DNA from: Planctomycetota bacterium
Lineage (GTDB): Bacteria; Planctomycetota; J058
DNA length: 64,000 bases
Assembly: GCA_023954375.1 (NCBI GenBank)
Contig: JAMLIC010000019.1
Coordinates: 20,739-84,738 of the forward strand
Direction of reading: 5' to 3'
This document shows positions 29,401 to 53,318 of the stretch, in pieces. Positions within the stretch are counted from its first letter, which is position 1. Each line of letters starts with the position of its first letter. Under the pieces are notes generated by a model that saw nothing but the letters and a program-made list of their open reading frames with translations, had not been told where the DNA came from and made no database searches. The translations under genes were made by a program, and so were the position numbers.

Positions 29401-29404
29401 CCCG

Positions 29405-37426: not shown

Positions 37427-37443
37427 GCGGCAGGAGAGACCCC

Positions 37444-38470: not shown

Positions 38471-38632
38471 TTAGAAGGGGGACGCGAGGACCTCGACGTT
38501 GCCGTTGTAGTGGTTGGTGATCGCCCGGGGCAGCCGGGTCACCATCCAGGTCAGGGCGAGGGCGACGAGCGCCACGAGGATGATCACCTCGGTCATGCTC
38601 TGGCCGCGCCGTCCGCCTCGCCGTCGCCTCAT
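38471..38632 (-). CDS. flp: Flp-family prepilin, 53 aa (not in the ORF track)
   Basis: The reverse complement reads MRRRRGGRRGQSMTEVIILVALVALALTWMVTRLPRAITNHYNGNVEVLASPF. It has a basic leader, GQSMTEV (EY replaced by EV) and a hydrophobic helix. GGAGG lies ~11 nt upstream. Confidence 0.65.
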   Translation of the reverse strand: MRRRRGGRRGQSMTEVIILVALVALALTWMVTRLPRAITNHYNGNVEVLASPF

Positions 38633-38961
38633 CCGAGCACGACCTCCGTCGTTCGAGTGCTGCTACTCACGTCCCGTACCATCTCCTACGGCGCCCGGCG
38701 CCGCGCAAGCGACCATCGCCCCAGGGTCCGACCGGCCCGTGGACCGTCTCCGGACGAGACGTACGGTTCAGATCTGGTGCGTATGAGACGAATCGGCGGG
38801 CACATCCGTGGCGGCGTCGCGCTAACTGTCGGGAACTTGGCCCTTGGTCGTCGGGTCCGCCGCGTGCTCCAATCTCCCGTCGCCGCGGAGTGATCCGCGC
38901 ACGAATCGCTGGAGTGAGGGCACAAGCGTCGGTGCACGCCGACACCGTAGGAGAGTCCGTC

Positions 38962-39177
38962 ATGGTCGTCAACCAGAAGAAGCAGCTCCGTCGTCGTCGT
39001 CGCAGCGGTCAGGGCATGACCGAGTACATCATCATCGTCGGGCTGATCGCCATCTGCCTGGTCGCGGCGGTGAAGAACTTCCGTGACGCGGTCGGCACGG
39101 CGTTCGACAAGGGCACGGAGACGATCGACACCGAGATCACCGGCAAGATCGGCGAGGGGCACACCCGCCGTCCCTGA
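38962..39177 (+). CDS. flp: Flp-family prepilin, 71 aa
   Basis: ATG 38962 follows TAGGAGAG. Sequence: MVVNQKKQLRRRRRSGQGMTEYIIIVGLIAICLVAAV.... Confidence 0.85.
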   Translation: MVVNQKKQLRRRRRSGQGMTEYIIIVGLIAICLVAAVKNFRDAVGTAFDKGTETIDTEITGKIGEGHTRRP

Positions 39178-39322
39178 TCTGCCGCGGGTTCGACCGACGG
39201 TCGCGGGTCGCGGAGCGGGCCACCGCCCGCCCCGCGCCGCGTCCACGTAGGCACACCCCTCTCCCGCTCTCGGTCCGCCTGCGGTGGGCGGGCCGGGGGC
39301 GGAACCACCCCGGGAGCGCGTG

Positions 39323-39877
39323 ATGGGTACCGTGGAGGCGGTCTTCGACCTCATCCGGGTGGCCCTGCTGTTCGTCACCGTCGCGGTCGCCGCGACGACC
39401 GACACCCTCTCCCGGCGCGTCCCCAACGTGGTCACCTACCCCGCCATGGCCCTCGGGCTCGCCCTGGGCTTCGGCATAGGCCAGGTGGGCCTCGACGCGA
39501 GCCTGGCCCAGCACCACCTCCTCAGCCACACCCTGGGCCTCCTCGTCGCCGCCGGGATCTTCCTCATCGCCTGGTGGGCGGGCGGCGTGAAGGGCGGCGA
39601 GGTGAAGCTGGCCGGCGCCGTGGGCGCGCTCGGCGGCCTGCAGTTCGCCGTGGCCGCCATGTTCTGGTCGAGCGTCATCGGCGCGATCATGGCCCTCTGG
39701 CTGCTGCTCCTCCGGGGCCGCCTGCTCGAGGGGCTGCGCCGGTCCGTCCGCTACGCCCTCTTGCTGCGCGCCGACCCGCCGCCCAAGGACGACCCGGCGC
39801 GCCTGTCGATCCCCTACGCGGTGGCGATCGCCTTCGGGACCGTCTGGACGTTCTTCCTCGTGGAGGCCACCCGGTGA
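39323..39877 (+). CDS. A24-family prepilin peptidase (CpaA/TadV-like) with a Glu at the second catalytic position
   Basis: ATG 39323 (Met14 of ORF 39284-39877). The first Asp motif is TTDTLSRRVPN. The second motif reads KGGEVKL where the family has GGGDVKL. Confidence 0.75.
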   Translation: MGTVEAVFDLIRVALLFVTVAVAATTDTLSRRVPNVVTYPAMALGLALGFGIGQVGLDASLAQHHLLSHTLGLLVAAGIFLIAWWAGGVKGGEVKLAGAVGALGGLQFAVAAMFWSSVIGAIMALWLLLLRGRLLEGLRRSVRYALLLRADPPPKDDPARLSIPYAVAIAFGTVWTFFLVEATR

Positions 39878-40521
39878 GCCCCTTCGCCCGCCTGCACCGG
39901 GACGAGGGCGGCCAGGCCATGGTCGAGTTCGTCCTCGTGTTCCCGATCCAGCTCCTCCTGACGCTCTCCGTCATCCAGTTCGCGTTCCTCGCCCACGCCC
40001 ATCTCGTCGTCCAGCAGGCCGCCTTCCTGGGCGCCCGCGCCGCCGCGGTCGCGGACGTGGGCCGGGGCGGGTTCACCGACGGGCGCGCCTGGCAGGTCGC
40101 CGGGAACCAGGTCGCCCGCCGGGTGGCGGCCCGCACCTGCGGCGTGCTCAGCTCCAACATGCCCATCGACGGGGAGGCCAGCGTCGACCAGGACGACCGG
40201 GCCGCCATGCGCTGGACCTCGTCGGAGGGGGGCACGGTCGGGTACTCGGAGCGGCGGATCCAGGAGGCCTTCAGGCACCTGGACGTGACGTTCACGCCGC
40301 ACCCGCAGGAGGGCTACGTCGCCTGCACCGTCAACTACGACTACGTGATGACGATCCCGGTCGCGAACCACATGTTCGCCAAGGCCCAGTTCATGCTCGA
40401 CTTCCGCGGGGGCGGCGACACGAACGCCTACAGGACCGAGGCGCAGCAGCGCCAGTGGACGGTCTTCCGCGTCAGGCAGGTGGCCTTCATCTCCACGCCG
40501 TGGACCAGGGAGCTCCGATGA
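39874..40521 (+). CDS. tadE: TadE-like pseudopilin
   Basis: GTG 39874 overlaps the upstream TGA. N-terminal GQAMVEFVLVFPIQLLL. Confidence 0.8.
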   Translation: MSPFARLHRDEGGQAMVEFVLVFPIQLLLTLSVIQFAFLAHAHLVVQQAAFLGARAAAVADVGRGGFTDGRAWQVAGNQVARRVAARTCGVLSSNMPIDGEASVDQDDRAAMRWTSSEGGTVGYSERRIQEAFRHLDVTFTPHPQEGYVACTVNYDYVMTIPVANHMFAKAQFMLDFRGGGDTNAYRTEAQQRQWTVFRVRQVAFISTPWTRELR

Positions 40522-42410
40522 TCGGCCTCTCGCGCCTCCGCGCCGGCGCCCGGCGCCTCCACGAGGACGAGGAGGGCGCCGCGCTCGTCTTCGCGGTCAT
40601 CACCCTGTTCTCCCTGGCGCTCCTGGTGTTCATGGTCTTCCAGGTCGGCCTCGTGAGCGCCGACCGCCTGCAGATCCAGACCGCCGCGGACGCCGCCGCC
40701 TACTCCGGGGCGCAGGTCGAGGCGAACTCGCTCAACGCGATCGCGCAGCTCAACGACGGCATGACGTACGTCCACTACGCCACGCTGCGCTACGTGCTGG
40801 ACAACATCGTCTACGGGACGCTCAACACGTTCACCACGCACCCCCAGTGGCTCCGGCAGAACGACTCGACCAACCTCCTCGGCCAGAGCCCGCGCGGCGT
40901 CGTGCCCGGCGGCTGGGCGAAGGAGTACGGACCGGACATCCTCAACGAGCCGGCCCCCCCCTGGGTGATGCTCGGCAACGAGAGCGAGTGGGAGGAGCGC
41001 TGGAAGGCCGTCGAGAGCAACGGCCGGGCGGCGGTCACCGAGGGCAAGCGCTGGCTCCTCGAGCTGAACGCCGCGGCGCACCTGATCATGCAGAAGACGC
41101 CCGAGCTCGTGCGCGAGAGGGCGGCCGAGATCGCCTTCCTCAACGGGGCGTCGCACGTGGCGATCTCGAGCGACCTCGAGCACGCGTTCAAGGCGAACCG
41201 GGACGGCAGCGACGAGGCGGGCTTCGTCGCCGCCCAGGGCGACCGCGAGGGCGAGGTGGCGGCCGCGCTCCCGCACCGCTACGAGGCGCGGCGGATCAAG
41301 GTCGACGACACGCCGCGCAGGCTGGTCGGGCCGAGCACCTGGTTCGACCCGCGGACCGGCAAGCGGGTGGGGGCGGGCTACTCCCAGGTGCGGATCTGCT
41401 GGAGCCGCGCCGACTGGGCCCACCGCGGCGGCGGCCAGCCCGACCTGCACATGGACCAGGACTCGCGCCTGCGGCGCTGGTACATGACGCCCAACGGCCA
41501 CTGGCACGCCCACCACGAGCACGTGTGGCTCGAGTACGACGAGAACGGCTTCCCGCGCGTGGAGCGGGACACCCACGGCGGCCTCGAGGGCTCGGGCAGC
41601 GGCCCGGTCCGCGAGAAGCAGTGCATGGGCGGCGGCGTGGGCGGCGGCCACATGGTCCCGACCGACGACGATCCGGAGATGCACCTCAAGGTGCAGATGG
41701 GCGGCTGGGGCCTCGACCCGTTCACGAGCAACCCGCTGCACCACGCCACGATCCGCTGCCCGACCTGCATGAGCAGCGACAGCAGCGCCGTGATGAACGG
41801 GCCGTTCTCGCAGGTCCGCAAGACGCAGGAGCGGGCGGAGCGGGACGGCGGGCTCGTCTACGAGCTCACGTTCGAGGGCGACGACTTCCCGAAGCCGCTG
41901 GTCGCCACGGCGGCGCTCCTGCGCAGCGGCGTGACGGTGGCCACCTGGCGGGAGAGCCACGGGATCGGCGACCTCCTGCCGCGCTCGCGCTGGGGCATGA
42001 TCGCCCTGGCCTCCGCCCAGGTGGGGCTGCTCGACCGTCAGGGGCGCGTCTTCGCCCTCGAGGAGCTCCAGTCCGGGCAGCGGGCCGTCTACGGCCAGGC
42101 GGGCGAGGTCCCGCTCGACATGACGCGAGACTCGCGCTACCGGAACCTCTTCTACTCCCACGACGACTCCCAGCTCCCCGGCGTGCGCTTCGGCGCGCGC
42201 CTGGTCCCCCTGCGGCGTGAGGAGACGCACCACCCCAAGCTGGCGCGGGGGGGCGCCGTCGACGAGCTCCTGCGCGACGGGTCGCGCTGGTGGACGACGG
42301 GCAACGCCTCGGGCGACCAGCAGCAGGGGGCCCCCCCGGGGCTGGACGCCCTGCGCCAGTGGGTCACGTTCAGCGACCTGCGCCACGTCCAGGAGACCCT
42401 GTGGCACTGA
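40518..42410 (+). CDS. tadG: TadG-like large pseudopilin (Tad_N-type N-terminus) with an unrecognised His/Cys-rich C-terminal region
   Basis: ATG 40518 is in an ATGA overlap. EEGAALVFAVITLFSLALLVFMVFQVG...LQIQTAADAAAYSGA. No vWA-like motif was seen by eye. Confidence 0.75.
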   Translation: MIGLSRLRAGARRLHEDEEGAALVFAVITLFSLALLVFMVFQVGLVSADRLQIQTAADAAAYSGAQVEANSLNAIAQLNDGMTYVHYATLRYVLDNIVYGTLNTFTTHPQWLRQNDSTNLLGQSPRGVVPGGWAKEYGPDILNEPAPPWVMLGNESEWEERWKAVESNGRAAVTEGKRWLLELNAAAHLIMQKTPELVRERAAEIAFLNGASHVAISSDLEHAFKANRDGSDEAGFVAAQGDREGEVAAALPHRYEARRIKVDDTPRRLVGPSTWFDPRTGKRVGAGYSQVRICWSRADWAHRGGGQPDLHMDQDSRLRRWYMTPNGHWHAHHEHVWLEYDENGFPRVERDTHGGLEGSGSGPVREKQCMGGGVGGGHMVPTDDDPEMHLKVQMGGWGLDPFTSNPLHHATIRCPTCMSSDSSAVMNGPFSQVRKTQERAERDGGLVYELTFEGDDFPKPLVATAALLRSGVTVATWRESHGIGDLLPRSRWGMIALASAQVGLLDRQGRVFALEELQSGQRAVYGQAGEVPLDMTRDSRYRNLFYSHDDSQLPGVRFGARLVPLRREETHHPKLARGGAVDELLRDGSRWWTTGNASGDQQQGAPPGLDALRQWVTFSDLRHVQETLWH

Positions 42411-43165
42411 CGAGCGAGCCGGGCGACGAGCCGCGCGGGCTGGCCGCCCTGCGTCATCTGCTGGTCGACGACGAGGGCGGCTCGGCCGCCGTCGAGTTCA
42501 TCGTCCTCATCCCGGTCTACGTCATCCTGCTCGCCGGCCTGTTCTCGATGTCGCAGCTCATGCTGGTGCGGCAGCGGGTCGTCATGGCGGCGCGCTACGA
42601 GGCCTGGAGCCCCGGCCACGGGCACGACCCCGAGGCCATGCGCTCGGCGTTCTTCCGCTTCCGCACGGGGGAGTGGAAGAGCACCCCCGATGAGCCCGTC
42701 GACCTCGACCTCAAGCTCGGGGGGTCGGAGCGGGGCCGCGAGCTCGCGGACCTGGTCCTCGAGAACAAGGTCGAGGGGCCCGACCACGCGGGCCATCCGC
42801 TCCGGAAGGTGAAGGTGAAGGGCGCCTTCGAGTGGTCGGGGCTGGTCTTCCTGCTGACCGGCGTCCAGCTCTCGGTGCGGACGGACTCCGCCGTCGTGCT
42901 GACCAACGACCACAAGCGTCCCATGTTCCAGGACGGCATGAGCGACGAGCACCCGATGGTCGGGGCGGTGGCCCTGAGCAACCTGCGGCAGGACGGGGCG
43001 TTCGACCCGATCGGCAAGGGGTTGAGCCCCAACCCCTACCGCTCGCCCGTCTTCGGCACCTTCCGGGAGGGGGGCGCCGACCCGGGGCTCTGGTCGCGCG
43101 ACGCGCGCCTTGGAGGCAACGTCATGGCCGAGCACGGGATCTATCGCCAGAAGATGGGTCAGTGA
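42401..43165 (+). CDS. tadE: Second TadE-like pseudopilin
   Basis: GTG 42401 lies 5 nt after AGGAG and overlaps the tadG end by 10 nt. GGSAAVEFIVLIPVYVILLAGLF. Confidence 0.7.
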   Translation: MALTSEPGDEPRGLAALRHLLVDDEGGSAAVEFIVLIPVYVILLAGLFSMSQLMLVRQRVVMAARYEAWSPGHGHDPEAMRSAFFRFRTGEWKSTPDEPVDLDLKLGGSERGRELADLVLENKVEGPDHAGHPLRKVKVKGAFEWSGLVFLLTGVQLSVRTDSAVVLTNDHKRPMFQDGMSDEHPMVGAVALSNLRQDGAFDPIGKGLSPNPYRSPVFGTFREGGADPGLWSRDARLGGNVMAEHGIYRQKMGQ

Positions 43166-43272
43166 CCCCGCTCGCGGTCCAGAGCTGCAACGGGAGACGA
43201 ATCGCGAGACGGATCTGGAATCGCACGTGACGGTCTGAGGGGCGTGGGGACCGAGTTCATGTATGTTGTGCG

Positions 43273-43288
43273 TGGCCCGGGCCTTGCG
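43273..43288 (+). promoter_or_regulatory. Candidate sigma54 (-24/-12) promoter for the long pilin gene
   Basis: TGGCCCGGGCCTTGCG matches TGGC-N7-TTGC exactly in spacing. It lies ~42 nt upstream of ATG 43330, in a 164-bp gap. Confidence 0.5.
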
Positions 43289-43329
43289 ACAGAGGAAAGA
43301 CGTCACCGGTTCTCGGGAGGATCGCAATC

Positions 43330-43674
43330 ATGATCACGCGGAAGAACTCTCGTCGGCGTCGGCTGGGCCAGGGGATGACCGAGTACGTGGTCATCGTCGG
43401 CCTCATCGGCCTCTGCCTCGTGGTGGCCGTCACGCGCTACGCCACCCAGGTCGAGGTCACGATCATCGGCTCGTCGGAAGAGTTCGACAGGAACAACGTC
43501 GGCTCGAACACCGGCCACAACAGCCGGAACCCGGACGCGCCGCCGCCTCCGGCCGGCACCCGGCCGCCCGCGGAGTGGGGGGAGCCGGACGGCCGCGGCA
43601 TCTACACCCACCCGAACGGCACGACGGGCCGCTGGAACGGCACCTCGATGGACATCATCCGCCCCAACCAGTAG
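43330..43674 (+). CDS. flp: Flp-type prepilin with a ~70-aa C-terminal extension (114 aa)
   Basis: GGGAGG lies upstream. MITRKNSRRRRLGQGMTEYVVIVGLIGLCLVVAV..., then a Pro-rich linker and the tail WGEPDGRGIYTHPNGTTGRWNGTSMDIIRPNQ. Confidence 0.8.
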   Translation: MITRKNSRRRRLGQGMTEYVVIVGLIGLCLVVAVTRYATQVEVTIIGSSEEFDRNNVGSNTGHNSRNPDAPPPPAGTRPPAEWGEPDGRGIYTHPNGTTGRWNGTSMDIIRPNQ

Positions 43675-43680
43675 CCGCGC

Positions 43681-44412
43681 TTGCTCCGCCGCGCCCCCAA
43701 CCTCCTCCTCGGCGCCGCGCTCACCGCGGCGCTCGTCTGGTTCGGGTTCCTGGTCACGGGGACGCGGGTGGACGCCCTCGTCGGCGGGCGGCCGGGGGGC
43801 CTCGCGCCGCTCCCGGGCTCCGAGGCCACCCACACGACAGTGCTCGTCGACGGGCAGCCGACGCGCGTGAGCGACTGCTGGCTGGCCACCCCGCCCGCCG
43901 GCGTCCTGGCCCGCTACGAGGCCCTGGCCGCGGCCGAGTCCCGCGCCAGCGGCGCCCCCTACGTGAAGCAGGAGGAGGCGGCGCTCGGCGGCGGCGTCCT
44001 CGTGTGGCGCGCCCCGGACGGGCGCCGGCGCGCCGTGTTCGTCGAGGCCGACGCGCTCGGCCGCAGCCGCTACCGCCTCCTCGAGGCCGACCCGCCGCGC
44101 GCGCCGACCCGGCGCCTGCCGCGCGGCCTCGAGCCCCCGCCGGGGGTCGAGGTGGTGCTCTCGCTCGAGCGCCCGGGCGGCGGCGGCTTCGCCCTCGTCC
44201 GCTCCCCCGCCCCCGTCCCTGCGGCCGCCGACGCCCTCCTCCGCGCCCTCGCCCGCGACGGCCTGACCGCCGAGCCCGCCGCCCTGGCCCTCCTCATCGC
44301 CGAGGGGACCGTGAGCCTGCCCCTCCAGGGCGCGGACGGCGCCGCCCGGGGGCTCCTGACCGTCGGCCCCGACGGCCAGGGTGGCGCGCGCGCCTCGCTC
44401 ACGCTCGACTAG
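43681..44412 (+). CDS. Hypothetical membrane-anchored protein in the Tad locus
   Basis: 243-aa ORF with a TTG start 6 nt after the pilin stop and an N-terminal TM helix (LLLGAALTAALVWFGFLV). No family recognised. Confidence 0.5.
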   Translation: MLRRAPNLLLGAALTAALVWFGFLVTGTRVDALVGGRPGGLAPLPGSEATHTTVLVDGQPTRVSDCWLATPPAGVLARYEALAAAESRASGAPYVKQEEAALGGGVLVWRAPDGRRRAVFVEADALGRSRYRLLEADPPRAPTRRLPRGLEPPPGVEVVLSLERPGGGGFALVRSPAPVPAAADALLRALARDGLTAEPAALALLIAEGTVSLPLQGADGAARGLLTVGPDGQGGARASLTLD

Positions 44413-44416
44413 GGGG

Positions 44417-44451
44417 CCGTCAGGAGCGAATCGGTGGTTCGATCCTGACGG
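44417..44451 (+). other. Strong hairpin between the pilin sub-cluster and cpaB
   Basis: CCGTCAGGA (44417-44425) pairs with TCCTGACGG (44443-44451), and an inner CGAA/TTCG extension is possible. It starts 5 nt after the stop at 44412. No U-tract. Confidence 0.4.
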
Positions 44452-44562
44452 CGCACCACCGGGCCCGGAGGGCCCGACGCGAGCGGGCGCAGGCGCGGCC
44501 CCTGCGCCTCCGGCGCGCTGGGCCGGCGCCCGCGTGGTTGTTAGGGTAGGAAGGGAGTCGCC

Positions 44563-45300
44563 GTGACCAACAAGCTCGCCCTCCTCGTCGCGGTCGCGCT
44601 GGGCGTCCTCTCGATCGTGGGCATCCGGCTCTACGTCGACAAGCTGGAGAAGCAGCAGCGCCTGGAGAAGAACCTCGTCGACGTCCTCATCGCCTCCCGC
44701 GACATCCAGGCCGGGCGGACGATGACCCGCGAGGACATCGAGATCGGGCAGTTCCCGGCCGCCTTCATGGAGGCGGCCTTCCGCAAGTCGAACGTCGGCG
44801 ACCTGAACACGATCGTCGGCGAGCGGACCGTCGAGCCGATCGCGGCGGGGCAGGTCCTGCAGCAGTACCACTTCAAGAAGCGGGAGCTGCGCCGGTTCAA
44901 CTTCGACAAGGAGTACCGGGCGATCACGATCCCGATGAACCGCGTCGGCGGCGTGGGCGGCCTGCTCCGCCCGGCGGACCAGGTCGACGTGCTCGTCAAC
45001 TCGCAGCTCTCCGACCAGACCGGCGCCCAGGTCACCGTGACGCGCGCCCTGTTCCGCAACGTGCTGATCCTGGCGCTCGACGGCAACACCGACCCGTTCG
45101 TCGACTTCGGCGGCTACGCGACGGTCACGCTGCGCCTGCGGCCCGAGGACTGCAACAAGCTCGCCTTCTGCCTCTACAACGGCGCGGCGATCCACCTGAC
45201 CTACGTGCAGCCCGGCACCCCGGAGCCCACCGGCTTCGACCCGGCGGTGGCGAACGACCTCTGGCGGGACATCAAGCAGGAGCTCCAGCAGCGGCGCTGA
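44563..45300 (+). CDS. cpaB: CpaB/RcpC-like Flp pilus assembly protein (SAF domain)
   Basis: 245 aa with a GTG start after GGAAGGGAG, an N-terminal TM helix, VLIASRDIQAGRTMTREDI (SAF-like) and a CpaB-type C-terminal domain. Confidence 0.85.
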   Translation: MTNKLALLVAVALGVLSIVGIRLYVDKLEKQQRLEKNLVDVLIASRDIQAGRTMTREDIEIGQFPAAFMEAAFRKSNVGDLNTIVGERTVEPIAAGQVLQQYHFKKRELRRFNFDKEYRAITIPMNRVGGVGGLLRPADQVDVLVNSQLSDQTGAQVTVTRALFRNVLILALDGNTDPFVDFGGYATVTLRLRPEDCNKLAFCLYNGAAIHLTYVQPGTPEPTGFDPAVANDLWRDIKQELQQRR

Positions 45301-45312
45301 GGAGGATCACGC

Positions 45313-47019: not shown

Positions 47020-47924
47020 GCCACGACCTCCTCCTGGCCCTGCCGCTCCTGGCGCAGGTCGACGACGGCAGCCGGGTGCTCCTGCACCTGGTGACGCTGC
47101 TCGGCGGCCTGGGCATGTTCGTGTTCGTGTTCGTGGGCTACCTGCTCTTCTCGTCGGGGTGGGAGAGCTACGAGGAGAAGTACATCGAGGGCGCCGAGCG
47201 GACGCTCGACGACCTGTTCCTCACCATCCCGCCGCAGCAGCTCCTGTGGCTGACGATCCTGGGCGGCTTCGGCATGCTCACCGTCGTGTTCGTCCTCACC
47301 GACAGCCTGCTCGTCGGCGCCGCCGCGGCGCTGCCGGGGGGCCTGGCGCCCCGGGTGGCGCTGGCGTTGCTCAGGCGCGCCCGCCACAAGAAGTTCAACG
47401 AGCAGCTGGTCGAGTCCATGGTCACGATGACCAACGCCCTGCGCAGCGGCGTCGCCCTGCCCAAGGCCTTCCAGATCGTGGCCCACGACATGCCCAAGCC
47501 GATCTGCCAGGAGTTCGGCATCCTCGTCCAGGAGATGCGCCTCGGCATGGACGTGGAGGAGGCCATGGAGAGCATGCTCGAGCGCATGCCCGGCCAGGAC
47601 CTCCAGCTCGTGTGCACGTCCGTCGGCATCTCGAACTCGGTCGGCGGCAACCTGGCCGAGGTGTTCGAGCGCCTGGCGGAGACGATCCGCGAGCGCTACC
47701 GCATCGAGGGGCGCATCGACGCGCTCACCGCGCAGGGCAAGATCCAGGGGCTCATGGTCTCGGTCCTGCCCATCTTCGTGGGCATCATGATCTACTTGAT
47801 CGAGCCGGGGATGATGAGCCTCATGTTCACGCGCGTGGAGGGCTGGGTGGTCCTTGGCGTGATGGTGGTCATGGAGGGCCTCGGGTTCTTCTTCGTCCGC
47901 AAGGTGACGACGATCGAGGTCTGA
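47016..47924 (+). CDS. tadB: TadB-like inner-membrane platform protein (T2SSF domain)
   Basis: ATG 47016 is in an ATGA overlap. It has TM helices flanking a cytoplasmic T2SSF-like region (LRSGVALPKAFQIVAHDMP...QEMRLGMDVEEAM). Confidence 0.8.
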   Translation: MSHDLLLALPLLAQVDDGSRVLLHLVTLLGGLGMFVFVFVGYLLFSSGWESYEEKYIEGAERTLDDLFLTIPPQQLLWLTILGGFGMLTVVFVLTDSLLVGAAAALPGGLAPRVALALLRRARHKKFNEQLVESMVTMTNALRSGVALPKAFQIVAHDMPKPICQEFGILVQEMRLGMDVEEAMESMLERMPGQDLQLVCTSVGISNSVGGNLAEVFERLAETIRERYRIEGRIDALTAQGKIQGLMVSVLPIFVGIMIYLIEPGMMSLMFTRVEGWVVLGVMVVMEGLGFFFVRKVTTIEV

Positions 47925-47927
47925 GCC

Positions 47928-48815
47928 ATGCCGCTCGAGTTGCTCGGCCTGTCGCTGTTCTTCGCCTTCGCCGTGGGGCTGCTCGCCTTCACGGTGATCG
48001 TGGACATCCTCACGATCAAGGAGGAGGCCCAGGCGCAGGACGAGCTCTTCTCGCAGAGCCCGCTGTTCAAGCTCGCCCTCCCCTTCGTCCAGCACATCGG
48101 GCGGGCCATCTCCGGCGTGCGGCTCTTCGACGGGATGCGCCGCGACATCTCCACGAAGCTCGTCCGCGCCGGCAAGGCCGACACGATCACCCCGGACGAG
48201 TTCATCGGGTTCATGCTCGTCAGCGGGTGCGTCGGCGCCGTGGTCGGGCTCTACTTCGACCTGATGATCGACGTCGGCGGGGCGGCGATCCTGGCCTTCG
48301 CCCTCCTCGTCATGGCCCTGCCGCTCCTCTCGCTCGGCGAGACGATCAAGCGCCGGCAGCACTCGATCCGCAAGCTGCTGCCCTACACGCTCGACCTCCT
48401 GTGCCTCGCCGTGGAGGCGGGCCTCGACTTCACCGCCGCGCTCAACCGGATCGCCGACAACCTCGACCGCTCGCCCTTCCGCGACGAGCTGCGCACGCTC
48501 TCGCGCGACCTCTCCATGGGCAAGACCAGGCCCGAGGCCCTGCGCGACATGGAGAAGCGGATCGGCCTCGAGGAGCTGACGTCCGTGGTGACCGCGCTGA
48601 TCCAGGCCGACGAGCTGGGCGCGAGCCTCGGGCCGACGCTCCGCATCCAGTCGCGCGAGCTCCAGCGCAAGCGCTTCCAGCGGGCCGAGAAGAAGGCCAT
48701 GCAGGCCCCCGTGCTCATGCTCATCCCGCTCGTGCTGTTCATCTTCCCGCTGGTGTTCCTCGTGATCTTCGCGCCCATGGCCCTCCAGATCCTCGACCAG
48801 GGGCTCTTCTTCTGA
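47928..48815 (+). CDS. tadC: TadC-like inner-membrane platform protein (T2SSF domain)
   Basis: 295 aa. LPYTLDLLCLAVEAGLDFTAALNRI...LSMGKTRPEALRDM. Confidence 0.8.
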   Translation: MPLELLGLSLFFAFAVGLLAFTVIVDILTIKEEAQAQDELFSQSPLFKLALPFVQHIGRAISGVRLFDGMRRDISTKLVRAGKADTITPDEFIGFMLVSGCVGAVVGLYFDLMIDVGGAAILAFALLVMALPLLSLGETIKRRQHSIRKLLPYTLDLLCLAVEAGLDFTAALNRIADNLDRSPFRDELRTLSRDLSMGKTRPEALRDMEKRIGLEELTSVVTALIQADELGASLGPTLRIQSRELQRKRFQRAEKKAMQAPVLMLIPLVLFIFPLVFLVIFAPMALQILDQGLFF

Positions 48816-49201
48816 TGCGGCTGGTGCGGGAGCGCGACGGGGCGGTGGTGGCCGACGAGGTGGAGCTCGCCGCGTCGTTCCTGCGCCGCCTCCGCGGCCT
48901 CATGGGGCGGCGCGCGCTCCCCCCCGGGCGCGGGCTGTGGCTCGAGCCCTGCGCGAGCATCCACATGATGTTCGTGCCCTTCTCCATCGACGTCCTGTTC
49001 GTCACGCGGCGCGGCGACCGGCCCCTGGGCCCGGGCGCCCGGGCCGAGGTGCTCGAGGTCGCGCCGCGGGTGCGGCCGTGGGTGGGGCTGGCCTGGTGCG
49101 CCGGCGCCTTCGGCGCGGTGGGCGCCATCGAGGTCGCCGCCGGTCGGGCGGGCGACCTGGGGGTCGCGCCGGGCGACCTCCTGACCCTGGAGGCCGCATG
49201 A
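48815..49201 (+). CDS. DUF192-family protein
   Basis: The ATG 48815 overlaps the tadC TGA by 1 nt. ASFLRRLRGLMGRRALPPGRGLWLEPCASIHMMFVPFSIDVLFV matches the DUF192 pattern. Confidence 0.7.
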   Translation: MRLVRERDGAVVADEVELAASFLRRLRGLMGRRALPPGRGLWLEPCASIHMMFVPFSIDVLFVTRRGDRPLGPGARAEVLEVAPRVRPWVGLAWCAGAFGAVGAIEVAAGRAGDLGVAPGDLLTLEAA

Positions 49202-50916
49202 AGACGGCGACCGCGCCCTGCCTGGAGATCCTCACCGGCGACCTCTCGGGGCGGCGCTACCGCGTCGAGGACGCGGAGTTCGTCATCGGGCGGGCGCCGA
49301 CCTGCGACCTCGTGCTGCCCAAGCGCTACATCTCGCGCGAGCACGCGCGGATCTCGCGGGCCGGCCGCGACTACGTCATCGAGGGGCTCTCGGAGAAGAA
49401 CCCGGTGACGCTCCGGGGGCGCCCGGTGCGCCCCGGCCACCGCCTCGAGGACGGGCAGGAGTTCGAGGTGTGCGGCATCCGGTTCCGCTTCCTCGCCCAG
49501 GCGGAGGTCGCCGGCGGCCGACGGCCGGCGAAGGAGACGGACGACTCCTGGGCCTCGGACCCGGACTTCGGCCGCCCCGAGCAGCGGCCCGGCCAGCGCT
49601 CCGACCCGGGCGAGGCCAGCGGCGACTCGGGCGAGCGCCCGCGCGGCCGCGACCTGCGCGACGAGTCGGCGGCCCCGCCGCGCGGCCTGCCGGTCGAGGA
49701 CGACGACGCGACGCCCCCGCCGCGCCGCCACGCGCGCGGGCCGAGCGAGGACGACCTCCCCGTCCCGGTCCGCGGCTCGGGGGCGGTCAAGCGCTCGGCC
49801 CCGGGCAAGGTCGTGTTCGACGCCGAGCCCGAGGGCGACGACGACTCCGAGGAGCGGACCGCCGAGCTCCCCGCGGTGGGGAGCAGGGCCGGCGGCGGCA
49901 GCCGCGAGTCGCAGAACGAGCGCACGGCGGAGCTGGGCAAGGTCAAGGACCCCAACGACCCCGACTACGACCCGTTCGCCGAGGTCGACCGGCGCAAGAA
50001 GGAGGAGAAGAAGGGCGACCCCGGGCGCGAGAAGGCGCTCCGCGCCCTCATGGTGCTCGGCGCCGGGGGGATCCTCCTGGCCGCGGTCATCATCTACAAG
50101 ACGCAGCAGAAGAAGCCCTACGTCCTCGAGCGCCACACCGGGGTCATCCGCGTCGCGATCGACCAGACGGTCCGCTTCGAGGAGCCGTGGTCGCAGGTGG
50201 ACCCCCCGCAGGGGCGCCGGACCACCCCGCTCGACGGGGAGCCGTACTTCTTCCACCGCGACCGGGTGGCGGACGTCGAGTGGGCGGTGCCCCACGTGAA
50301 GACCAAGTGCATCTTCCTCATCCGCGGGATCGAGCCGGGCGCGATGGAGTTCGACCTCGTCTTCCCCGAGAGCCGCCGGGTGAAGCGCTTCACGGTCGAG
50401 GTCGAGGGCGACAACCCCCACGACGTCGCGCGCGAGCGGCGGCGCGCCGAGATGAAGGGCAAGGTCAGCGCGCACCAGCTGCGCCAGAAGGCCGAGGCCC
50501 ACATGGCCTCGGGCGAGACCTACGTGAAGGAGCGCGACATCACCGCGCGCGAGGGCAACTACCGGCTGGCCGTCATCGAGTTCACGCGGGCCGTCGACTC
50601 CGCCGTCCTCCTCCGCGACCAGCTCGCGCAGGGCGGGATCGTCCCGGGCGACGTGGCCGAGCTGGTGCGGCGGGCGGAGGACGCCGAGGCCAAGGCGCGC
50701 AACGACTACGACGAGTTCGTCCACCGCGAGCTGGCGAAGTACCGGGCGACGCTGCAGAAGAACACCACCTTCGAGCGCGTCGAGCAGCTGAAGCGGACGC
50801 TGCGGGCGATCAACCACGAGTGCGACCTCCGGTTCATCCGCCTGAAGCTGATCCTCCAGAACAGCTTCAACGGCACGTGGACGGGCGGCGGCGGCGAAGT
50901 CTGCACGGAGCGTTGA
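49198..50916 (+). CDS. FHA-domain membrane protein (FHA, disordered linker, TM helix, ~290-aa extracytoplasmic domain)
   Basis: ATG 49198 is in an ATGA overlap. FHA: FVIGRAPTCDLVLPKRYISREHARI. TM helix: ALMVLGAGGILLAAVIIY. Confidence 0.8.
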   Translation: MKTATAPCLEILTGDLSGRRYRVEDAEFVIGRAPTCDLVLPKRYISREHARISRAGRDYVIEGLSEKNPVTLRGRPVRPGHRLEDGQEFEVCGIRFRFLAQAEVAGGRRPAKETDDSWASDPDFGRPEQRPGQRSDPGEASGDSGERPRGRDLRDESAAPPRGLPVEDDDATPPPRRHARGPSEDDLPVPVRGSGAVKRSAPGKVVFDAEPEGDDDSEERTAELPAVGSRAGGGSRESQNERTAELGKVKDPNDPDYDPFAEVDRRKKEEKKGDPGREKALRALMVLGAGGILLAAVIIYKTQQKKPYVLERHTGVIRVAIDQTVRFEEPWSQVDPPQGRRTTPLDGEPYFFHRDRVADVEWAVPHVKTKCIFLIRGIEPGAMEFDLVFPESRRVKRFTVEVEGDNPHDVARERRRAEMKGKVSAHQLRQKAEAHMASGETYVKERDITAREGNYRLAVIEFTRAVDSAVLLRDQLAQGGIVPGDVAELVRRAEDAEAKARNDYDEFVHRELAKYRATLQKNTTFERVEQLKRTLRAINHECDLRFIRLKLILQNSFNGTWTGGGGEVCTER

Positions 50917-50918
50917 AC

Positions 50919-53318
50919 GTGCGTTTGATCTACCAGCGCGGCGACGAGCGCATCGCCTTCCCCATCGACGAGGGGGAGACGTTCATCGGGCGCAAGGACG
51001 ACTGCGACATCTACTTTCCGGACTCGAGCCTCTCGAAGCGCCACGCCCGGCTCGTGCGGCGCGGCCGCTCGCTCACCGCCTACGACGCCGGCTCGAAGAA
51101 CGGCACGATGGTCAACGGCGAGCTGATCCGCGGCGCCACCCCGCTCGGGAGCGGCGACGTCCTCGAGTGCGGGAAGCTGGCCTTCCGCGTCGAGGGCGTC
51201 GGCGAGGGGGACTTCGACATCGTGGAGGACGAGGGCCGGAGCCGCCCCTCGCGCGGGTCGGCCCCGGTCGCGAAGGCCGTGCGCAGCGGCGAGGTGCGCG
51301 GGTCCGTCCTCGACGAGTTCCCGGAGATGCCGCGCTCGGGCGAGCTCCAGGCGCCGGGCGCCCAGGCGAGCCCGCGCGCCCGCTTCCGCCTGGTCGAGGG
51401 CGGCCCGGAGCGCACGTGGGAGCTGACCGAGGGCCAGACGGCCACCGTCGGCTCGAAGCCGGAGAACGCGATCGTCCTCACCGGCGAGGGGATCTCTCGC
51501 TACCACGCGGAGGTGGTGCACGAGGGCGGCAAGTGGCTGCTCAAGGACCTCGGGGCGCGCAACGGCCTGTTCGTCGCCGGCAAGAAGATCGACATCCACG
51601 AGCTGAACGAGGGCGACGAGGTGCAGATCGGCACGGCGAGGCTGCGCTTCGAGGTCGTGCGGCCCTCGCCGCTCCTCGAGGTCCAGCAGCTGGTCGCCCA
51701 GCTCAAGGCCGACCCGGTGGGCACCTTCAAGCGCGAGCCGCGGGTGCGCATGGCGGCGGCCAGCCTCATCGCGGGGCTGTTCCTGCTGTTCATGGCCCTG
51801 CCCGCGGGCGACGAGCAGCGCCGCGGCGGCTACACGGGCGACCTCGCGTGGATCGACGAGGGCACGGCCAAGCTCCTCGCCGGCGAGACCCGGGAGGCGC
51901 GCGACATCTTCCGCCGGGCCCAGGCCAAGCCGAGCACCACGAAGGAGCTCCAGGAGGTGGCCCGCACGCTCACGACGATGACGAACCACTGGGTCGAGCT
52001 CGACAAGGGCGCGCTCCAGTTCCGCTGGGGCCGCGCCGAGGAGCTCCTGCTCGACTGCGCCAGGCTGCCGAACCTCCCCACCTCCCTCCAGGAGTGGATC
52101 ACCGCGCAGATGGGCTCGGTGCGCATGAACAAGGAGGCCTACGACAAGCTGGGCGAGGCCGAGCAGCTCGGGGCCGGCGCCGTGCAGCTGGCGCAGGAGA
52201 AGAAGTTCCGCGAGGCGCTGCGGCGCTTCGAGGCGACCACCCTCCGCTACGGCGAGGTCCACGCCCAGAGCGTCTACGGCCCGCGCGCCGCCGAGCAGGC
52301 GCGCGCCCTGCGCGGGCAGGTGTTCAAGATGGTCCTCGACGAGGCGAACGCCCTCATGCGCGTGCCCTCGCCCGACTGGCAGGGCGTCGTCAGCTTCATC
52401 GACCAGGGCAACGCCTACGCCGACACCCCCGAGCAGCGCATGGAGCTGCGGCGGCTCAAGGAGGTGTGCGAGACCAACCTGCGCGACGAGGAGCTCTACC
52501 AGCGCGGCGTGGACATCGTCGCCGTCCGCGACGTGGAGAACTACCCCACCGCCACGCAGCTCTTCGAGCGGATCGACCGCCGGTCGCGCATCTACCCCGA
52601 CGCGCAGGCCTACATCCAGTGGATCGACGCCGACCTGAAGGTGCGGCAGGCGCAGCGCGCCTACGAGACCGGCGACGCGAAGCGCGCCTTCACGCTGCTG
52701 AGCGAGGCGCTCCAGCACGAGGTCCTGGGCCCCGAGGCGCGCAACAGCGTGCGCACGCGCCGGACGAACTGGGGGCGCGTCTACACGGCCTACACCCGCG
52801 GCATCGAGGCGGAGGACCCGAAGGAGGCGCGGGAGGAGCTGCTCCGCGTGATCCAGCTCGAGCCGAGCCAGGCCAACGTCTACCACAAGCGGGCGCTCGA
52901 CCACCTGCGCCACCTGCAGCGCCTCGACAACATGAACCTCGAGGGCAAGCTGCGCGAGGGGATCGCCGCGCTCGAGGCCGGCGAGTACGACCGCGCCTGG
53001 CGCATGTTCGAGGCCGTGCAGGCCGACCCGAACAAGCAGCCGCGCGACGTGCAGCGCATCCAGGAGGCGGTCGTCAACGCCAACCGCTCGCGGCGCCTCC
53101 TCCACCACGCGCAGCAGGACTTCATCCGCGACCGCCAGGAGCGGTTCCTCGAGATCTACTACATCACCTACATCCTGCGCGGCTGGCTGCCGCAGACCGA
53201 GCGCGCCGCGCGCACCGAGGCGGACCAGCTGTTCGGGCACGTGGTCAAGCGCCTGAAGCTCCTGCACAAGCTGGCGGAGGACACGGGGACGATCCCGGGG
53301 GGCCCCCGGCCGCGGTAG
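50919..53318 (+). CDS. Double-FHA membrane protein with a TPR-like extracytoplasmic domain
   Basis: GTG 50919 lies 2 nt after the upstream stop. FHA1: FIGRKDDCDIYFPDSSLSKRHARL...GSKNGTMVNG. FHA2: TVGSKPENAIVLTGEGISRYHAEV...GARNGLFVAG. TM helix: AAASLIAGLFLLFMAL. The ~510-aa C-terminus is helical-repeat-like. Confidence 0.8.
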   Translation: MRLIYQRGDERIAFPIDEGETFIGRKDDCDIYFPDSSLSKRHARLVRRGRSLTAYDAGSKNGTMVNGELIRGATPLGSGDVLECGKLAFRVEGVGEGDFDIVEDEGRSRPSRGSAPVAKAVRSGEVRGSVLDEFPEMPRSGELQAPGAQASPRARFRLVEGGPERTWELTEGQTATVGSKPENAIVLTGEGISRYHAEVVHEGGKWLLKDLGARNGLFVAGKKIDIHELNEGDEVQIGTARLRFEVVRPSPLLEVQQLVAQLKADPVGTFKREPRVRMAAASLIAGLFLLFMALPAGDEQRRGGYTGDLAWIDEGTAKLLAGETREARDIFRRAQAKPSTTKELQEVARTLTTMTNHWVELDKGALQFRWGRAEELLLDCARLPNLPTSLQEWITAQMGSVRMNKEAYDKLGEAEQLGAGAVQLAQEKKFREALRRFEATTLRYGEVHAQSVYGPRAAEQARALRGQVFKMVLDEANALMRVPSPDWQGVVSFIDQGNAYADTPEQRMELRRLKEVCETNLRDEELYQRGVDIVAVRDVENYPTATQLFERIDRRSRIYPDAQAYIQWIDADLKVRQAQRAYETGDAKRAFTLLSEALQHEVLGPEARNSVRTRRTNWGRVYTAYTRGIEAEDPKEAREELLRVIQLEPSQANVYHKRALDHLRHLQRLDNMNLEGKLREGIAALEAGEYDRAWRMFEAVQADPNKQPRDVQRIQEAVVNANRSRRLLHHAQQDFIRDRQERFLEIYYITYILRGWLPQTERAARTEADQLFGHVVKRLKLLHKLAEDTGTIPGGPRPR

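What the first reader, a model, noticed from the sequence alone, without database searches (positions are those of the whole stretch)
38471..53318. Atypical Tad/Flp-type machine: FHA-rich, with no secretin, TadZ or TadD in cis (Kil-like?)
Seen in sequence: the locus encodes three Flp-type prepilins (GQ[GS]MTE[YV]), an A24 peptidase, TadE-like, TadG-like and TadE-like pseudopilins, a 243-aa membrane protein, CpaB, an FHA-CpaF ATPase, TadB, TadC, DUF192 and two FHA membrane proteins. The junctions at 39874, 40518, 42401, 47016, 48815 and 49198 are 1-10 nt start/stop overlaps, and 47924/47928 and 50916/50919 are 2-3 nt gaps, so this is a tightly coupled unit. Established knowledge: canonical Tad loci (Aggregatibacter tad, Caulobacter cpa) also encode an outer-membrane secretin (RcpA/CpaC), the ParA-like TadZ/CpaE and TadD/RcpB/RcpC. 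I recognise none of these anywhere in the window. Inference: either the missing parts are encoded elsewhere, or the FHA/TPR membrane proteins substitute for them. The first option would parallel the two-cluster Tad-like Kil prey-killing system reported for Myxococcus xanthus, which as far as I recall is also FHA-rich. Whether this is an adhesive pilus or a contact-dependent killing/secretion device cannot be read from the sequence.
Basis: partly seen in the sequence, partly recalled or inferred. Interest (0 to 1): 0.8.

Follow-up and report, generated by a model that had tools for sequence, protein, structure and literature searches.

The report
FHA-type Tad pilus cluster without secretin
An uncultured high-GC planctomycete carries a conserved 15-gene cluster for a Tad/Flp pilus machine of the phosphothreonine-sensing, Kil-like type; its outer-membrane pore gene is missing from the cluster in every relative examined, so it is a new variant of a known machine rather than a new kind.

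Summary
Window 38471-53318 encodes 15 intact genes with the stated identities and junctions. They are three Flp pilins, an A24 peptidase, TadE-TadG-TadE, a 243-aa anchored protein, CpaB, FHA-CpaF, TadB, TadC, DUF192 and two FHA membrane proteins. No secretin, TadZ or TadD was detected in the 64 kb. The cluster is bounded by GAPDH genes and a convergent RNase II gene, so nothing is hidden in the same operon.

The organism is a Planctomycetota MAG lineage, not Myxococcota. The same module, always with cpaB abutting FHA-cpaF and no secretin, recurs in seven other loci. Four of the five that show flanks have different ones.

Kinship with Kil is real but partial:
- FHA-CpaF is 51% identical to a Myxococcaceae KilF-type protein.
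- The peptidase is 36% identical to the KilA-type protein.
- The last gene has the KilD architecture (2xFHA, TM, helical domain; hhalign 99.8%).
- Gene order mirrors Kil cluster 2.
- Lack of TadZ and TadD is normal for Kil.

Only the secretin is absent here, which is a different split from Myxococcus.

Most likely mechanism: a Ser/Thr-phosphorylation-gated Tad pilus with its secretin encoded in trans. This is inferred, because the rest of the genome could not be searched.

Verdict: new variant of a known kind, moderate interest.

The parts
38471..38632 (-). flp1: 53-aa Flp-type prepilin (RRG|QSMTEV followed by a hydrophobic helix), divergent from flp2
   Evidence: ORF and motif. No Pfam hit. 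An orthologue lies in the same place and orientation in L003, 48% identity.
38633..38961 (.). 329-bp divergent intergenic region between flp1 and flp2; presumed promoter region
   Evidence: Coordinates. No sigma-70 consensus match. Function is inferred only.
38962..39177 (+). flp2: 71-aa Flp prepilin (RSG|QGMTEY); candidate major pilin
   Evidence: Flp_Fap 24.1 bits, below the cutoff of 32.2. Motif. Homologues in L003, L005, L007 and L006. The major-pilin role is inferred from its position and separate transcription unit.
39323..39877 (+). A24 prepilin peptidase (TadV/CpaA/KilA type, 184 aa). The second catalytic Asp of the GxGD motif is Glu (E93).
   Evidence: Peptidase_A24 47.5 bits. 36% identity to the Myxococcaceae KilA-type protein. 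GGEVKL here against GDVKL in four homologues.
39874..40521 (+). TadE-like minor pilin 1 (215 aa; G|QAMVEF)
   Evidence: TadE 41 bits. 4-nt overlap with the peptidase gene. Orthologue in L003 at 40% identity.
40518..42410 (+). TadG-like large minor pilin (630 aa; KilN position) with conserved His/Cys clusters NGHWHAHHEH and HHAxxxCxxC
   Evidence: Tad PF13400 26.8 bits. Alignment with L003 and L005 orthologues. No PDB sequence match.
42401..43165 (+). TadE-like minor pilin 2 (254 aa; G|SAAVEF)
   Evidence: TadE 30.1 bits. 10-nt overlap with tadG.
43330..43674 (+). flp3: 114-aa Flp prepilin (LG|QGMTEY) with a long C-terminal extension; sits in the position of the KilK 'adapter' pilin
   Evidence: Motif. 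Homologues in L001, L002, L003, L005 and L007. The adapter role is inferred from position.
43681..44412 (+). 243-aa protein with one N-terminal TM helix and a periplasmic domain of unknown fold
   Evidence: No Pfam or NCBIfam hit. TM at residues 6-28. Conserved upstream of cpaB in L001, L002 and L003 at 79, 39 and 33% identity.
44563..45300 (+). CpaB/RcpC/KilB: inner-membrane-anchored periplasmic alignment-ring protein (245 aa)
   Evidence: SAF + RcpC. TIGR03177 107.5 bits. Weak match to P. aeruginosa RcpC 9gzr. N-terminal TM.
45313..47019 (+). FHA-CpaF/TadA/KilF motor ATPase (568 aa); Walker A GGTGSGKTT at 46327-46353
   Evidence: FHA 64 bits plus T2SSE 207 bits. 414 bits to Caulobacter CpaF structures. 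51% identity to the Myxococcaceae KilF-type protein.
47016..47924 (+). TadB/CpaG/KilG platform protein (302 aa)
   Evidence: T2SSF 65.8 bits. 4 TM segments.
47928..48815 (+). TadC/CpaH/KilH platform protein (295 aa)
   Evidence: T2SSF 78.6 bits.
48815..49201 (+). DUF192 protein (128 aa, no signal peptide seen); a recurrent Tad-associated accessory of unknown role
   Evidence: DUF192 54.7 bits. Present in L001, L002, L003, L007, L011 and L012. Also reported next to Tad genes in Erysipelotrichales.
49198..50916 (+). FHA1 (572 aa): FHA, ~150-aa disordered linker, conserved ERTAEL...DPDYDPFAEVD motif (49918-49989), TM, then a periplasmic beta-sandwich plus helical bundle
   Evidence: Pfam FHA and Yop-YscD_cpl. 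TM at 279-302. AF2 model with pLDDT above 90 in the folded parts. About 38 homologue clusters; every named one is Planctomycetota.
50919..53318 (+). FHA2 (799 aa): two FHA domains, a TM, then a ~480-aa periplasmic alpha-solenoid (TPR-like); same architecture as KilD
   Evidence: Pfam FHA x2. TM at 275-298. AF2 model pLDDT 84.8. hhalign against the Myxococcaceae KilD-type protein: probability 99.75, E 2e-27.

Best explanation
This is the near-complete gene set of a type IVc (Tad/Flp) pilus machine of the FHA-rich, Kil-like subtype. It belongs to an uncultured, very high-GC Planctomycetota lineage.

Shown by sequence:
- An A24 peptidase, three Flp prepilins and three minor pilins that share a G|xxxxE(Y/F/V) processing site. 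The exception is TadG, whose site lacks the Glu.
- A TadE-TadG-TadE set in the order of the Kil 'tip' genes.
- An inner-membrane-anchored CpaB/RcpC.
- A CpaF motor with an N-terminal FHA domain, and the TadB/TadC platform.
- Two bitopic inner-membrane proteins whose cytoplasmic ends are one or two FHA (phosphothreonine-binding) domains. Their periplasmic ends are a beta-sandwich plus helical bundle (FHA1) or a ~480-residue alpha-solenoid (FHA2, the KilD architecture).

Inferred mechanism:
- Ser/Thr kinases and PP2C phosphatases write phosphothreonine marks. Such genes lie beside the cluster in some relatives and elsewhere in this window.
- The FHA domains of CpaF, FHA1 and FHA2 read these marks.
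- That recruits and switches on the motor at the platform. The FHA scaffolds therefore do the positioning and gating job that TadZ does in canonical systems.
- The pilus, primed by the TadE/TadG/TadE tip, grows through the CpaB ring.

The secretin it needs to cross the outer membrane is most likely encoded elsewhere in the genome. That would be a split system, though split differently from Myxococcus.

The biological role cannot be decided. My estimate is surface or cell attachment about 55%, Kil-like contact-dependent attack about 25%, other about 20%.
For: - Domain identities.
- Gene frames and translational coupling.
- Conservation: the module recurs in seven other loci (L001, L002, L003, L005, L007, L009, L012), some only partly sampled. 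cpaB always lies directly before FHA-cpaF. Four of the five loci that show flanks have flanks different from the window's.
- Taxonomy: the closest homologues at 87-93% identity, and all named full-length FHA1 and FHA2 homologues, are Planctomycetota MAGs.
- Kil kinship: CpaF 51% and peptidase 36% identical to the Myxococcaceae cluster-1 proteins. FHA2 against the KilD-type protein gives hhalign probability 99.75. Both have a hydrophobic segment after the second FHA domain. The published order of Kil cluster 2 is FHA+TPR, FHA, KilH, KilG, KilB, x, x, KilK, x, x, KilL, TadG-like, KilM. That mirrors this locus.
- Canonical FHA residues (GR, SxxH, NG) are invariant in FHA1 and in the first FHA domain of FHA2, and largely kept in the CpaF family.
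- Kinase or phosphatase genes abut the cluster in L005, L009 and L012. Three Ser/Thr kinases lie in the window.
- For a secretin in trans: RcpC, the CpaB homologue, is known to dock onto the secretin RcpA. Related FHA-CpaF loci L004, L006 and L010 carry a secretin exactly between cpaB or the peptidase gene and cpaF. Kil and Bdellovibrio Tad systems are known to be dispersed over several loci.
Against: - No secretin was seen in 64 kb or in any of the seven related loci, and the rest of the genome could not be searched. The 'in trans' step is therefore an assumption.
- The C-terminal domain of FHA2 is only weakly similar to that of KilD (19.9 bits). Most of the hhalign signal comes from the FHA domains.
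- FHA-CpaF also occurs in non-Kil systems.
- The window's peptidase has Glu in place of the second catalytic Asp, which may impair processing.
- No phosphorylation site or kinase partner has been demonstrated.
Confidence: 0.72

Rival explanations
1. Truly secretin-independent machine. The lineage has no dedicated secretin. The filament either stays in the (enlarged planctomycetal) periplasm as a pseudopilus or piston, or it crosses the outer membrane by another route. The CpaB ring and the periplasmic domains of FHA1, FHA2 and the 243-aa protein would form the trans-envelope part.
For: The secretin is absent in cis in 8 of 8 planctomycete-type loci, with cpaB abutting cpaF. Three conserved proteins have sizeable periplasmic domains of unknown function. 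L011 also lacks a secretin in cis.
Against: None of these proteins is predicted to form a beta-barrel. They are anchored by a single inner-membrane helix. CpaB/RcpC normally works by docking to a secretin. Split Tad systems are well documented. Absence in cis says nothing about the other megabases of the genome.
Confidence: 0.13
2. Ordinary adhesive Tad pilus with no special relation to Kil. On this view the FHA domains are just the 'class III' CpaF decoration plus generic regulators, and the resemblance to Kil is convergent or shallow.
For: FHA-CpaF is a recognised architecture reported mostly in betaproteobacteria. kil-gene homologues at E<=1e-25 occur in 47 phyla. The periplasmic domain of FHA2 matches KilD only weakly. 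Nothing is known about predation in these MAGs.
Against: Synteny with Kil cluster 2 extends to the two FHA proteins after tadC and to the TadE-TadG-TadE-Flp order. FHA2 and KilD share the whole 2xFHA-TM-helical layout. TadD is missing, as described for Kil, and TadZ/CpaE is missing here and never mentioned there. CpaF is 51-53% identical over its full length, FHA domain included, to the Myxococcaceae and deltaproteobacterial proteins.
Confidence: 0.1
3. Decaying or inactive locus that lost its secretin and is losing its peptidase.
For: The secretin gene is missing, and the GxGD catalytic Asp is replaced by Glu in the peptidase.
Against: All 15 ORFs are intact with strong third-position GC bias and coupled start/stop junctions. 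The full set is kept across relatives that are only 27-93% identical. Other members have the canonical Asp.
Confidence: 0.05

Closest known systems
Myxococcus xanthus Kil system (Tad-like contact-dependent killing apparatus; PMC8460266, PMC12075869)
   Same: FHA-fused ATPase (KilF), A24 peptidase (KilA), CpaB (KilB), TadB/TadC (KilG/KilH), Flp pilins and a TadE-TadG-TadE 'tip' set. An FHA protein and an FHA+TPR protein follow the platform genes. A KilD-type 2xFHA-TM-helical protein is present. No TadZ and no TadD. The machine is not encoded in a single complete cluster.
   Different: The phylum is Planctomycetota, whereas Kil was reported as restricted to Myxococcales, Bdellovibrionales and Bradymonadales. 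Only the secretin is missing from the cluster, whereas Kil separates peptidase, secretin, ATPase and KilD from the rest. A DUF192 gene and a 243-aa anchored protein are added. No KilC-type secretin was found. No evidence of predation. The C-terminal domain of FHA2 is barely alignable with KilD.
Canonical Tad/Cpa/Rcp pili (Aggregatibacter tad, Caulobacter cpa, Pseudomonas rcp-tad)
   Same: Flp pilin with a G|xxxxEY site, TadV-type peptidase, a single bifunctional CpaF/TadA motor (414 bits to the Caulobacter CpaF structure), TadB/TadC, RcpC/CpaB, and TadE/F/G minor pilins.
   Different: No RcpA/CpaC secretin, TadZ/CpaE, TadD or RcpB in the cluster or window. The ATPase carries an FHA domain. Two FHA membrane proteins are added.
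'Class III' FHA-CpaF Tad systems (e.g. Achromobacter xylosoxidans; PMC12019362)
   Same: The FHA-linker-ATPase architecture of the motor.
   Different: That class is described as mostly betaproteobacterial. Whether those loci carry FHA1- or FHA2-type partners or lack TadZ was not examined here.
Tad loci of monoderm bacteria (Actinobacteria, Firmicutes), which lack a secretin
   Same: No secretin next to tadA, tadB and tadC. DUF192 is also found in some Firmicutes Tad loci (PMC12786226).
   Different: From my own knowledge, those loci normally keep TadZ. Planctomycetota are diderm. The closest relatives of this CpaF are in diderm lineages.
FHA-gated secretion machines: T3SS SctD/YscD/PrgH and the T6SS Fha1/TagH-PpkA-PppA pathway
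   Same: FHA1 has the layout FHA, single TM, periplasmic domain. It hits Yop-YscD_cpl and, by fold, the YscD/PscD cytoplasmic domains. The logic of kinase/phosphatase-controlled assembly through FHA domains is the model proposed for Kil.
   Different: No homology beyond the FHA fold was found. The periplasmic domain of FHA1 gave no ring-building-motif match. This is an analogy only.

Membership tests
Tad/Flp (type IVc) pilus system | Short Flp pilin with a G|xxxxEY processing site and a hydrophobic N-terminal helix | tested here: met
   Three genes with G|Q[GS]MTE[YV]. Flp2 scores 24 bits on Flp_Fap, below the cutoff of 32.
Tad/Flp (type IVc) pilus system | TadV/CpaA-type A24 prepilin peptidase with two catalytic Asp residues | tested here: inconclusive
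   Peptidase_A24 47.5 bits and the first Asp is present. The GxGD Asp is Glu in this genome, while four homologues have Asp.
Tad/Flp (type IVc) pilus system | CpaF/TadA ATPase plus two GspF-like platform proteins, TadB and TadC | tested here: met
   T2SSE 207 bits. 414 bits to CpaF structures. T2SSF twice.
Tad/Flp (type IVc) pilus system | RcpC/CpaB and TadE/TadF/TadG minor pilins | tested here: met
   TIGR03177 107.5 bits against a cutoff of 71. TadE twice and Tad PF13400.
Tad/Flp (type IVc) pilus system | RcpA/CpaC secretin (in diderms) | tested here: not met
   No Secretin or pil_N domain in any window ORF. No tblastn hit with three secretins. Also absent from seven related loci. The rest of the genome was not searchable.
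Tad/Flp (type IVc) pilus system | TadZ/CpaE (ParA/MinD-like) and the TadD pilotin | tested here: not met
   No ParA/CbiA/AAA_31-type or TPR-lipoprotein gene in the cluster or window.
Kil-type Tad-like system | ATPase fused to an N-terminal FHA domain (KilF) | tested here: met
   FHA + T2SSE. 51% identity over 598 aligned columns to the Myxococcaceae protein that sits between a secretin and a KilD-type gene. Not exclusive to Kil.
Kil-type Tad-like system | KilD-type multidomain FHA-FHA-TPR protein, plus further FHA proteins next to the platform genes | tested here: met
   hhalign probability 99.75, E 2e-27 against the KilD-type protein. Same TM position. FHA1 and FHA2 follow tadC, as MXAN_4649 and MXAN_4648 follow kilH. 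The C-terminal domain is only weakly similar.
Kil-type Tad-like system | Short KilC secretin lacking the N0 domain | tested here: not met
   Not in the window. Presence elsewhere in the genome is not testable with these tools.
Kil-type Tad-like system | Absence of TadZ, TadD and RcpB | tested here: met
   None found. The Kil paper lists TadD and RcpB as missing and never mentions CpaE or TadZ.
Kil-type Tad-like system | Assembly at prey-contact sites and a requirement for prey killing | not testable with these tools
   This is a functional property and the organism is known only from MAGs.
Kil-type Tad-like system | Membership of the Kil clade in a KilF/G/H/B phylogeny | not tested
   Only pairwise identities were obtained (51-53% to the Myxococcaceae and deltaproteobacterial CpaF). 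No canonical outgroup sequences were available for a tree.

The most novel reading that the evidence does not exclude
A diderm lineage runs a phosphothreonine-gated, Kil-type Tad machine with no secretin at all. The CpaB ring and the large periplasmic domains of the bitopic FHA proteins (a ~480-residue alpha-solenoid and a beta-sandwich plus helical bundle) would form a new kind of trans-envelope path. It could serve contact-dependent attack or capture by planctomycetes.
Probability: 0.12. Interest if true: 0.85.

Novelty: new variant of a known kind. Interest (0 to 1): 0.45.

Why it matters
- Kil-type Tad machines were presented as a hallmark of predatory deltaproteobacterial lineages. A conserved relative in Planctomycetota widens that distribution. 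Either this machine type is not tied to predation, or contact-dependent killing is more widespread than thought.
- The planctomycete version is the more compact one, with everything but the secretin in one cluster. It shows that the two FHA membrane proteins belong to the conserved core.
- It suggests that KilD-type proteins are bitopic membrane proteins with a large periplasmic domain rather than cytoplasmic proteins. That bears directly on models of how prey contact is sensed.
- It gives a clean comparative set for asking how Tad systems work without TadZ. The set comprises eight secretin-less loci and three with a secretin between cpaB (or the peptidase gene) and cpaF.

Tried and rejected
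- Exact-sequence look-ups of the window's CpaF and TadC found nothing on record, so the source contig could not be extended. The window's own CpaF is listed on a 158.8-kb contig with masked origin.
No genome-wide search for a secretin was then possible.
- Foldseek on both AF2 models returned only FHA-domain matches. The periplasmic domains of FHA1 and FHA2 therefore stay unassigned.
- PDB sequence searches gave nothing for TadG or DUF192.
- P0225, a Sandaracinaceae FHA protein, was checked as a possible route to Kil cluster 2. It sits in an unrelated neighbourhood.
- A profile of the FHA2 periplasmic domain found 565 representative proteins, many with FHA N-termini. None in the top 150 matched the KilD-type protein beyond its FHA region. 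The direct profile score on KilD is only 19.9 bits.
- The idea that the 243-aa protein is a cryptic secretin was rejected. It is too short, has a single N-terminal TM and shows no pil_N signal.
- Promoter, terminator, Rfam and tRNA scans added nothing to the locus.

Full report
**1. The observation**

The window has 72-82% G+C, so long spurious ORFs occur in all frames. A third-position GC frame plot selects a single coding frame over each stretch of 39.3-53.4 kb on the + strand.

Start codons and junctions match the claim:
- 4-nt overlaps at 39874, 40518, 47016 and 49198
- a 10-nt overlap at 42401
- a 1-nt overlap at 48815
- gaps of 3 nt and 2 nt at 47924/47928 and 50916/50919

Pfam confirms the following:
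- Peptidase_A24
- TadE (twice)
- Tad/TadG-like
- SAF + RcpC
- FHA + T2SSE
- T2SSF (twice)
- DUF192
- one FHA domain in the 572-aa protein and two in the 799-aa protein

NCBIfam calls the CpaB an equivalog-level pilus_cpaB.

The three small genes carry G|Q[GS]MTE[YV] followed by a hydrophobic helix. Only Flp2 gives a Flp_Fap hit, and that is below Pfam's threshold. flp1 lies on the minus strand, divergent from flp2. This arrangement is conserved in L003.

The cluster has gaps of 146-165 nt before the peptidase gene, flp3 and cpaB. It is therefore probably several transcription units, with cpaB to fha2 as one tightly coupled block.

**2. What is missing**

Upstream lie two tandem GAPDH genes. 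Downstream is a convergent RNase II gene. The cluster therefore ends at both sides and nothing is hidden in the same operon.

Pfam scans of all other frame-supported ORFs found efflux, phosphoesterase, kinase, helicase, PBP, ABC-transporter and glycosyltransferase genes. They found no Secretin, no T2SS-T3SS_pil_N and no ParA/CpaE-like domain. The only TPR hits outside the cluster are in a Ser/Thr kinase. tblastn with three Kil-type secretins found nothing in six frames.

One caveat applies. In a related locus (L010) a 400-aa protein sits between cpaB and cpaF. It has the pil_N domain and N-terminal similarity to secretins, yet it gives no Pfam Secretin hit. Very divergent secretins can therefore escape these models.

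**3. Whose genome is this**

- FHA2 finds two GTDB genomes, both Planctomycetota MAGs, at 87% and 49% identity.
- The best CpaF homologue, at 93%, is also labelled Planctomycetota.
- FHA1 and FHA2 each have about 38-39 full-length homologue clusters. Every one that carries a name is a Planctomycetota MAG.

**4. Conservation**

Seven further loci carry the same ordered module, some only partly sampled. They are L001, L002, L003, L005, L007, L009 and L012, with CpaF 55-93% identical. The full order, where it is sampled, is:

Flp(s), [peptidase], TadE, TadG, TadE, Flp, small anchored protein, CpaB, FHA-CpaF, TadB, TadC, [DUF192], FHA1, FHA2

.

- Where they can be seen (L003, L005, L007, L009), the flanking genes differ from the window's and from each other: aconitase/adh_short, PP2C/kinases, a cNMP-binding gene/RF-1, kinases. 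L012 repeats the PP2C upstream flank of L005.
- In every case cpaB is followed directly by cpaF.
- Lack of a secretin in cis is therefore a conserved trait of this clade, not an accident of this window.
- PP2C phosphatase genes (L005, L012) and Ser/Thr kinase genes (L005, L009) abut the cluster. The window itself has three Ser/Thr kinases further away.

**5. Relation to Kil**

The CpaF search also reached a complete Myxococcaceae genome at 51% identity. There the gene sits in the arrangement FHA protein, A24 peptidase, secretin, FHA-ATPase, FHA-FHA-TPR protein. That is the published Kil cluster 1, MXAN_3104 to MXAN_3108.

- The window's peptidase is 36% identical to that KilA-type protein.
- FHA2 aligns with the KilD-type protein over both FHA domains (29%, E 8e-19).
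- As a family profile, FHA2 gives hhalign probability 99.75 over about 450 columns.
- Both proteins have one strongly hydrophobic segment after the second FHA domain, although KilD is described as cytoplasmic.
- Similarity in the C-terminal helical domain is weak (19.9 bits).
- The published order of Kil cluster 2 is FHA+TPR, FHA (PrgH-like), KilH, KilG, KilB, two unknowns, KilK, two unknowns, KilL, TadG-like, KilM. This is the mirror image of the window's order once the peptidase, ATPase and DUF192 are removed.
- Kil is described as lacking TadD and RcpB, and CpaE/TadZ is never mentioned.

Three other loci keep a secretin just upstream of cpaF: between cpaB and cpaF in a deltaproteobacterial MAG (L006) and in L010, and between the peptidase gene and cpaF in the Myxococcaceae locus L004. 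The simplest reading is that an ancestral cpaB-secretin-cpaF order lost the secretin gene from this position in the planctomycete clade.

Two cautions apply:
- An FHA-fused CpaF is a recognised 'class III' architecture, said to be mostly betaproteobacterial.
- kil-gene homologues are found in 47 phyla.

The Kil-like label therefore rests on the combination of features, not on the FHA domain alone. I could not build the phylogeny that would settle clade membership.

**6. The accessory proteins**

*FHA1* (AF2, pLDDT above 90 in the folded parts):
- an FHA domain
- a ~150-residue disordered acidic linker
- a near-invariant motif ERTAELGKVxDPxDPDYDPFAEVD just before the membrane
- one TM helix
- a periplasmic beta-sandwich followed by a helical bundle

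*FHA2*:
- two FHA domains
- one TM helix
- a ~480-residue alpha-solenoid

Foldseek returned only FHA matches for both, including the T3SS YscD/PscD cytoplasmic domains for FHA1.

The canonical phosphothreonine-contact residues (GR, SxxH, NG) are invariant in FHA1 and in the first FHA domain of FHA2. They are mostly conserved in the CpaF family.

A profile of the FHA2 solenoid finds 565 representative proteins, 62 of them below 1e-30. Of the 74 listed hits that are at least 600 aa long, 46 carry N-terminal FHA domains. The FHA-TM-solenoid design is thus a sizeable family. Neither protein looks like an outer-membrane channel.

**7. Mechanism**

*Shown:* the parts list of a Tad pilus motor, platform, alignment ring, pilins and peptidase, plus three proteins with FHA domains facing the cytoplasm.

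*Inferred:*
- Ser/Thr phosphorylation controls recruitment of FHA-CpaF to TadB/TadC through FHA1 and FHA2. These take over the positioning role of the missing TadZ. The Kil authors propose the same logic.
- The invariant Thr in the FHA1 motif has Leu at +3. From my own knowledge, many FHA domains prefer that spacing. It is therefore a candidate docking site, but this is speculation.
- A secretin in trans is favoured because RcpC-type rings work by docking onto a secretin and because split Tad systems are known. This remains untested.

The role, whether adhesion or contact-dependent attack, cannot be read from sequence.

**8. Verdict**

This is a new variant of a known kind: a Kil-like, FHA-type Tad cluster in Planctomycetota whose secretin is consistently not in cis.

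It is moderately interesting. It widens the distribution of Kil-type machines and supplies a compact comparative model. However, it comes from MAGs only, and the one truly surprising reading (no secretin at all) is unproven.

Noticed in passing
window 39593-39610 (codon 39599-39601): The A24 prepilin peptidase reads GGEVKL where four homologues (L003, L010, L006, L004) read G(x)GDVKL. The second catalytic Asp of the GxGD motif is Glu (GAG) in this genome. It could be a real variant, an inactive enzyme or a sequencing error.
   Followed up: partly
window 41493-41522 and 41739-41768: The large C-terminal domain of the TadG-like pilin carries conserved His/Cys clusters (NGHWHAHHEH; HHAxxxCxxC). 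The L003 and L005 orthologues share them, but the deltaproteobacterial L006 TadG does not. They look like a metal site on the presumed pilus tip.
   Followed up: partly
window 49918-49989: FHA1 has a near-invariant cytoplasmic juxtamembrane motif, ERTAELGKVxDPxDPDYDPFAEVD, in 34 homologues. The invariant Thr has Leu at +3, so it is a possible FHA-docking phosphosite.
   Followed up: partly
L004 11815-14034 (Myxococcaceae bacterium GXIMD 01537): The KilD-type protein has a strongly hydrophobic segment (residues 284-313) after its second FHA domain. This suggests a bitopic membrane protein, although KilD is described in the literature as cytoplasmic.
   Followed up: partly
L010 8793-9995 (GCA_964443875.1, 45% GC): A 400-aa protein between cpaB and FHA-cpaF has a signal peptide, a T2SS-T3SS_pil_N domain at threshold, and N-terminal similarity to KilC-type secretins. 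It gives no Pfam Secretin hit, so it may be a very divergent secretin that standard models miss.
   Followed up: partly
L011 10001-19484 (ENA contig_10766, 684 kb): A related cluster encodes three FHA-T2SSE ATPase paralogues interleaved with FHA and TPR proteins, again with no secretin in cis.
   Followed up: no
window 36329-37426 and about 37440-38469: Two tandem glyceraldehyde-3-phosphate dehydrogenase paralogues lie directly upstream of the pilus cluster.
   Followed up: no
window 12047-14317 (-), 14034-16016 (-), 29249-32068 (+): Three Ser/Thr protein kinases lie in the window, one with C-terminal TPR repeats. They are possible writers for the FHA readers, but they are not adjacent to the cluster.
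   Followed up: no
window 57516-57611: ARAGORN reports a 96-nt 'tRNA-???' with a two-base anticodon. Rfam at gathering thresholds finds no RNA family anywhere in the window, so this is probably a false positive.
   Followed up: partly
window 48815-49201; L001, L002, L003, L007, L011, L012: A DUF192 gene is a recurrent member of these clusters. A paper on Bulleidia reports it beside Tad genes in Erysipelotrichales. It seems to be an unrecognised Tad-associated accessory of unknown role.
   Followed up: partly
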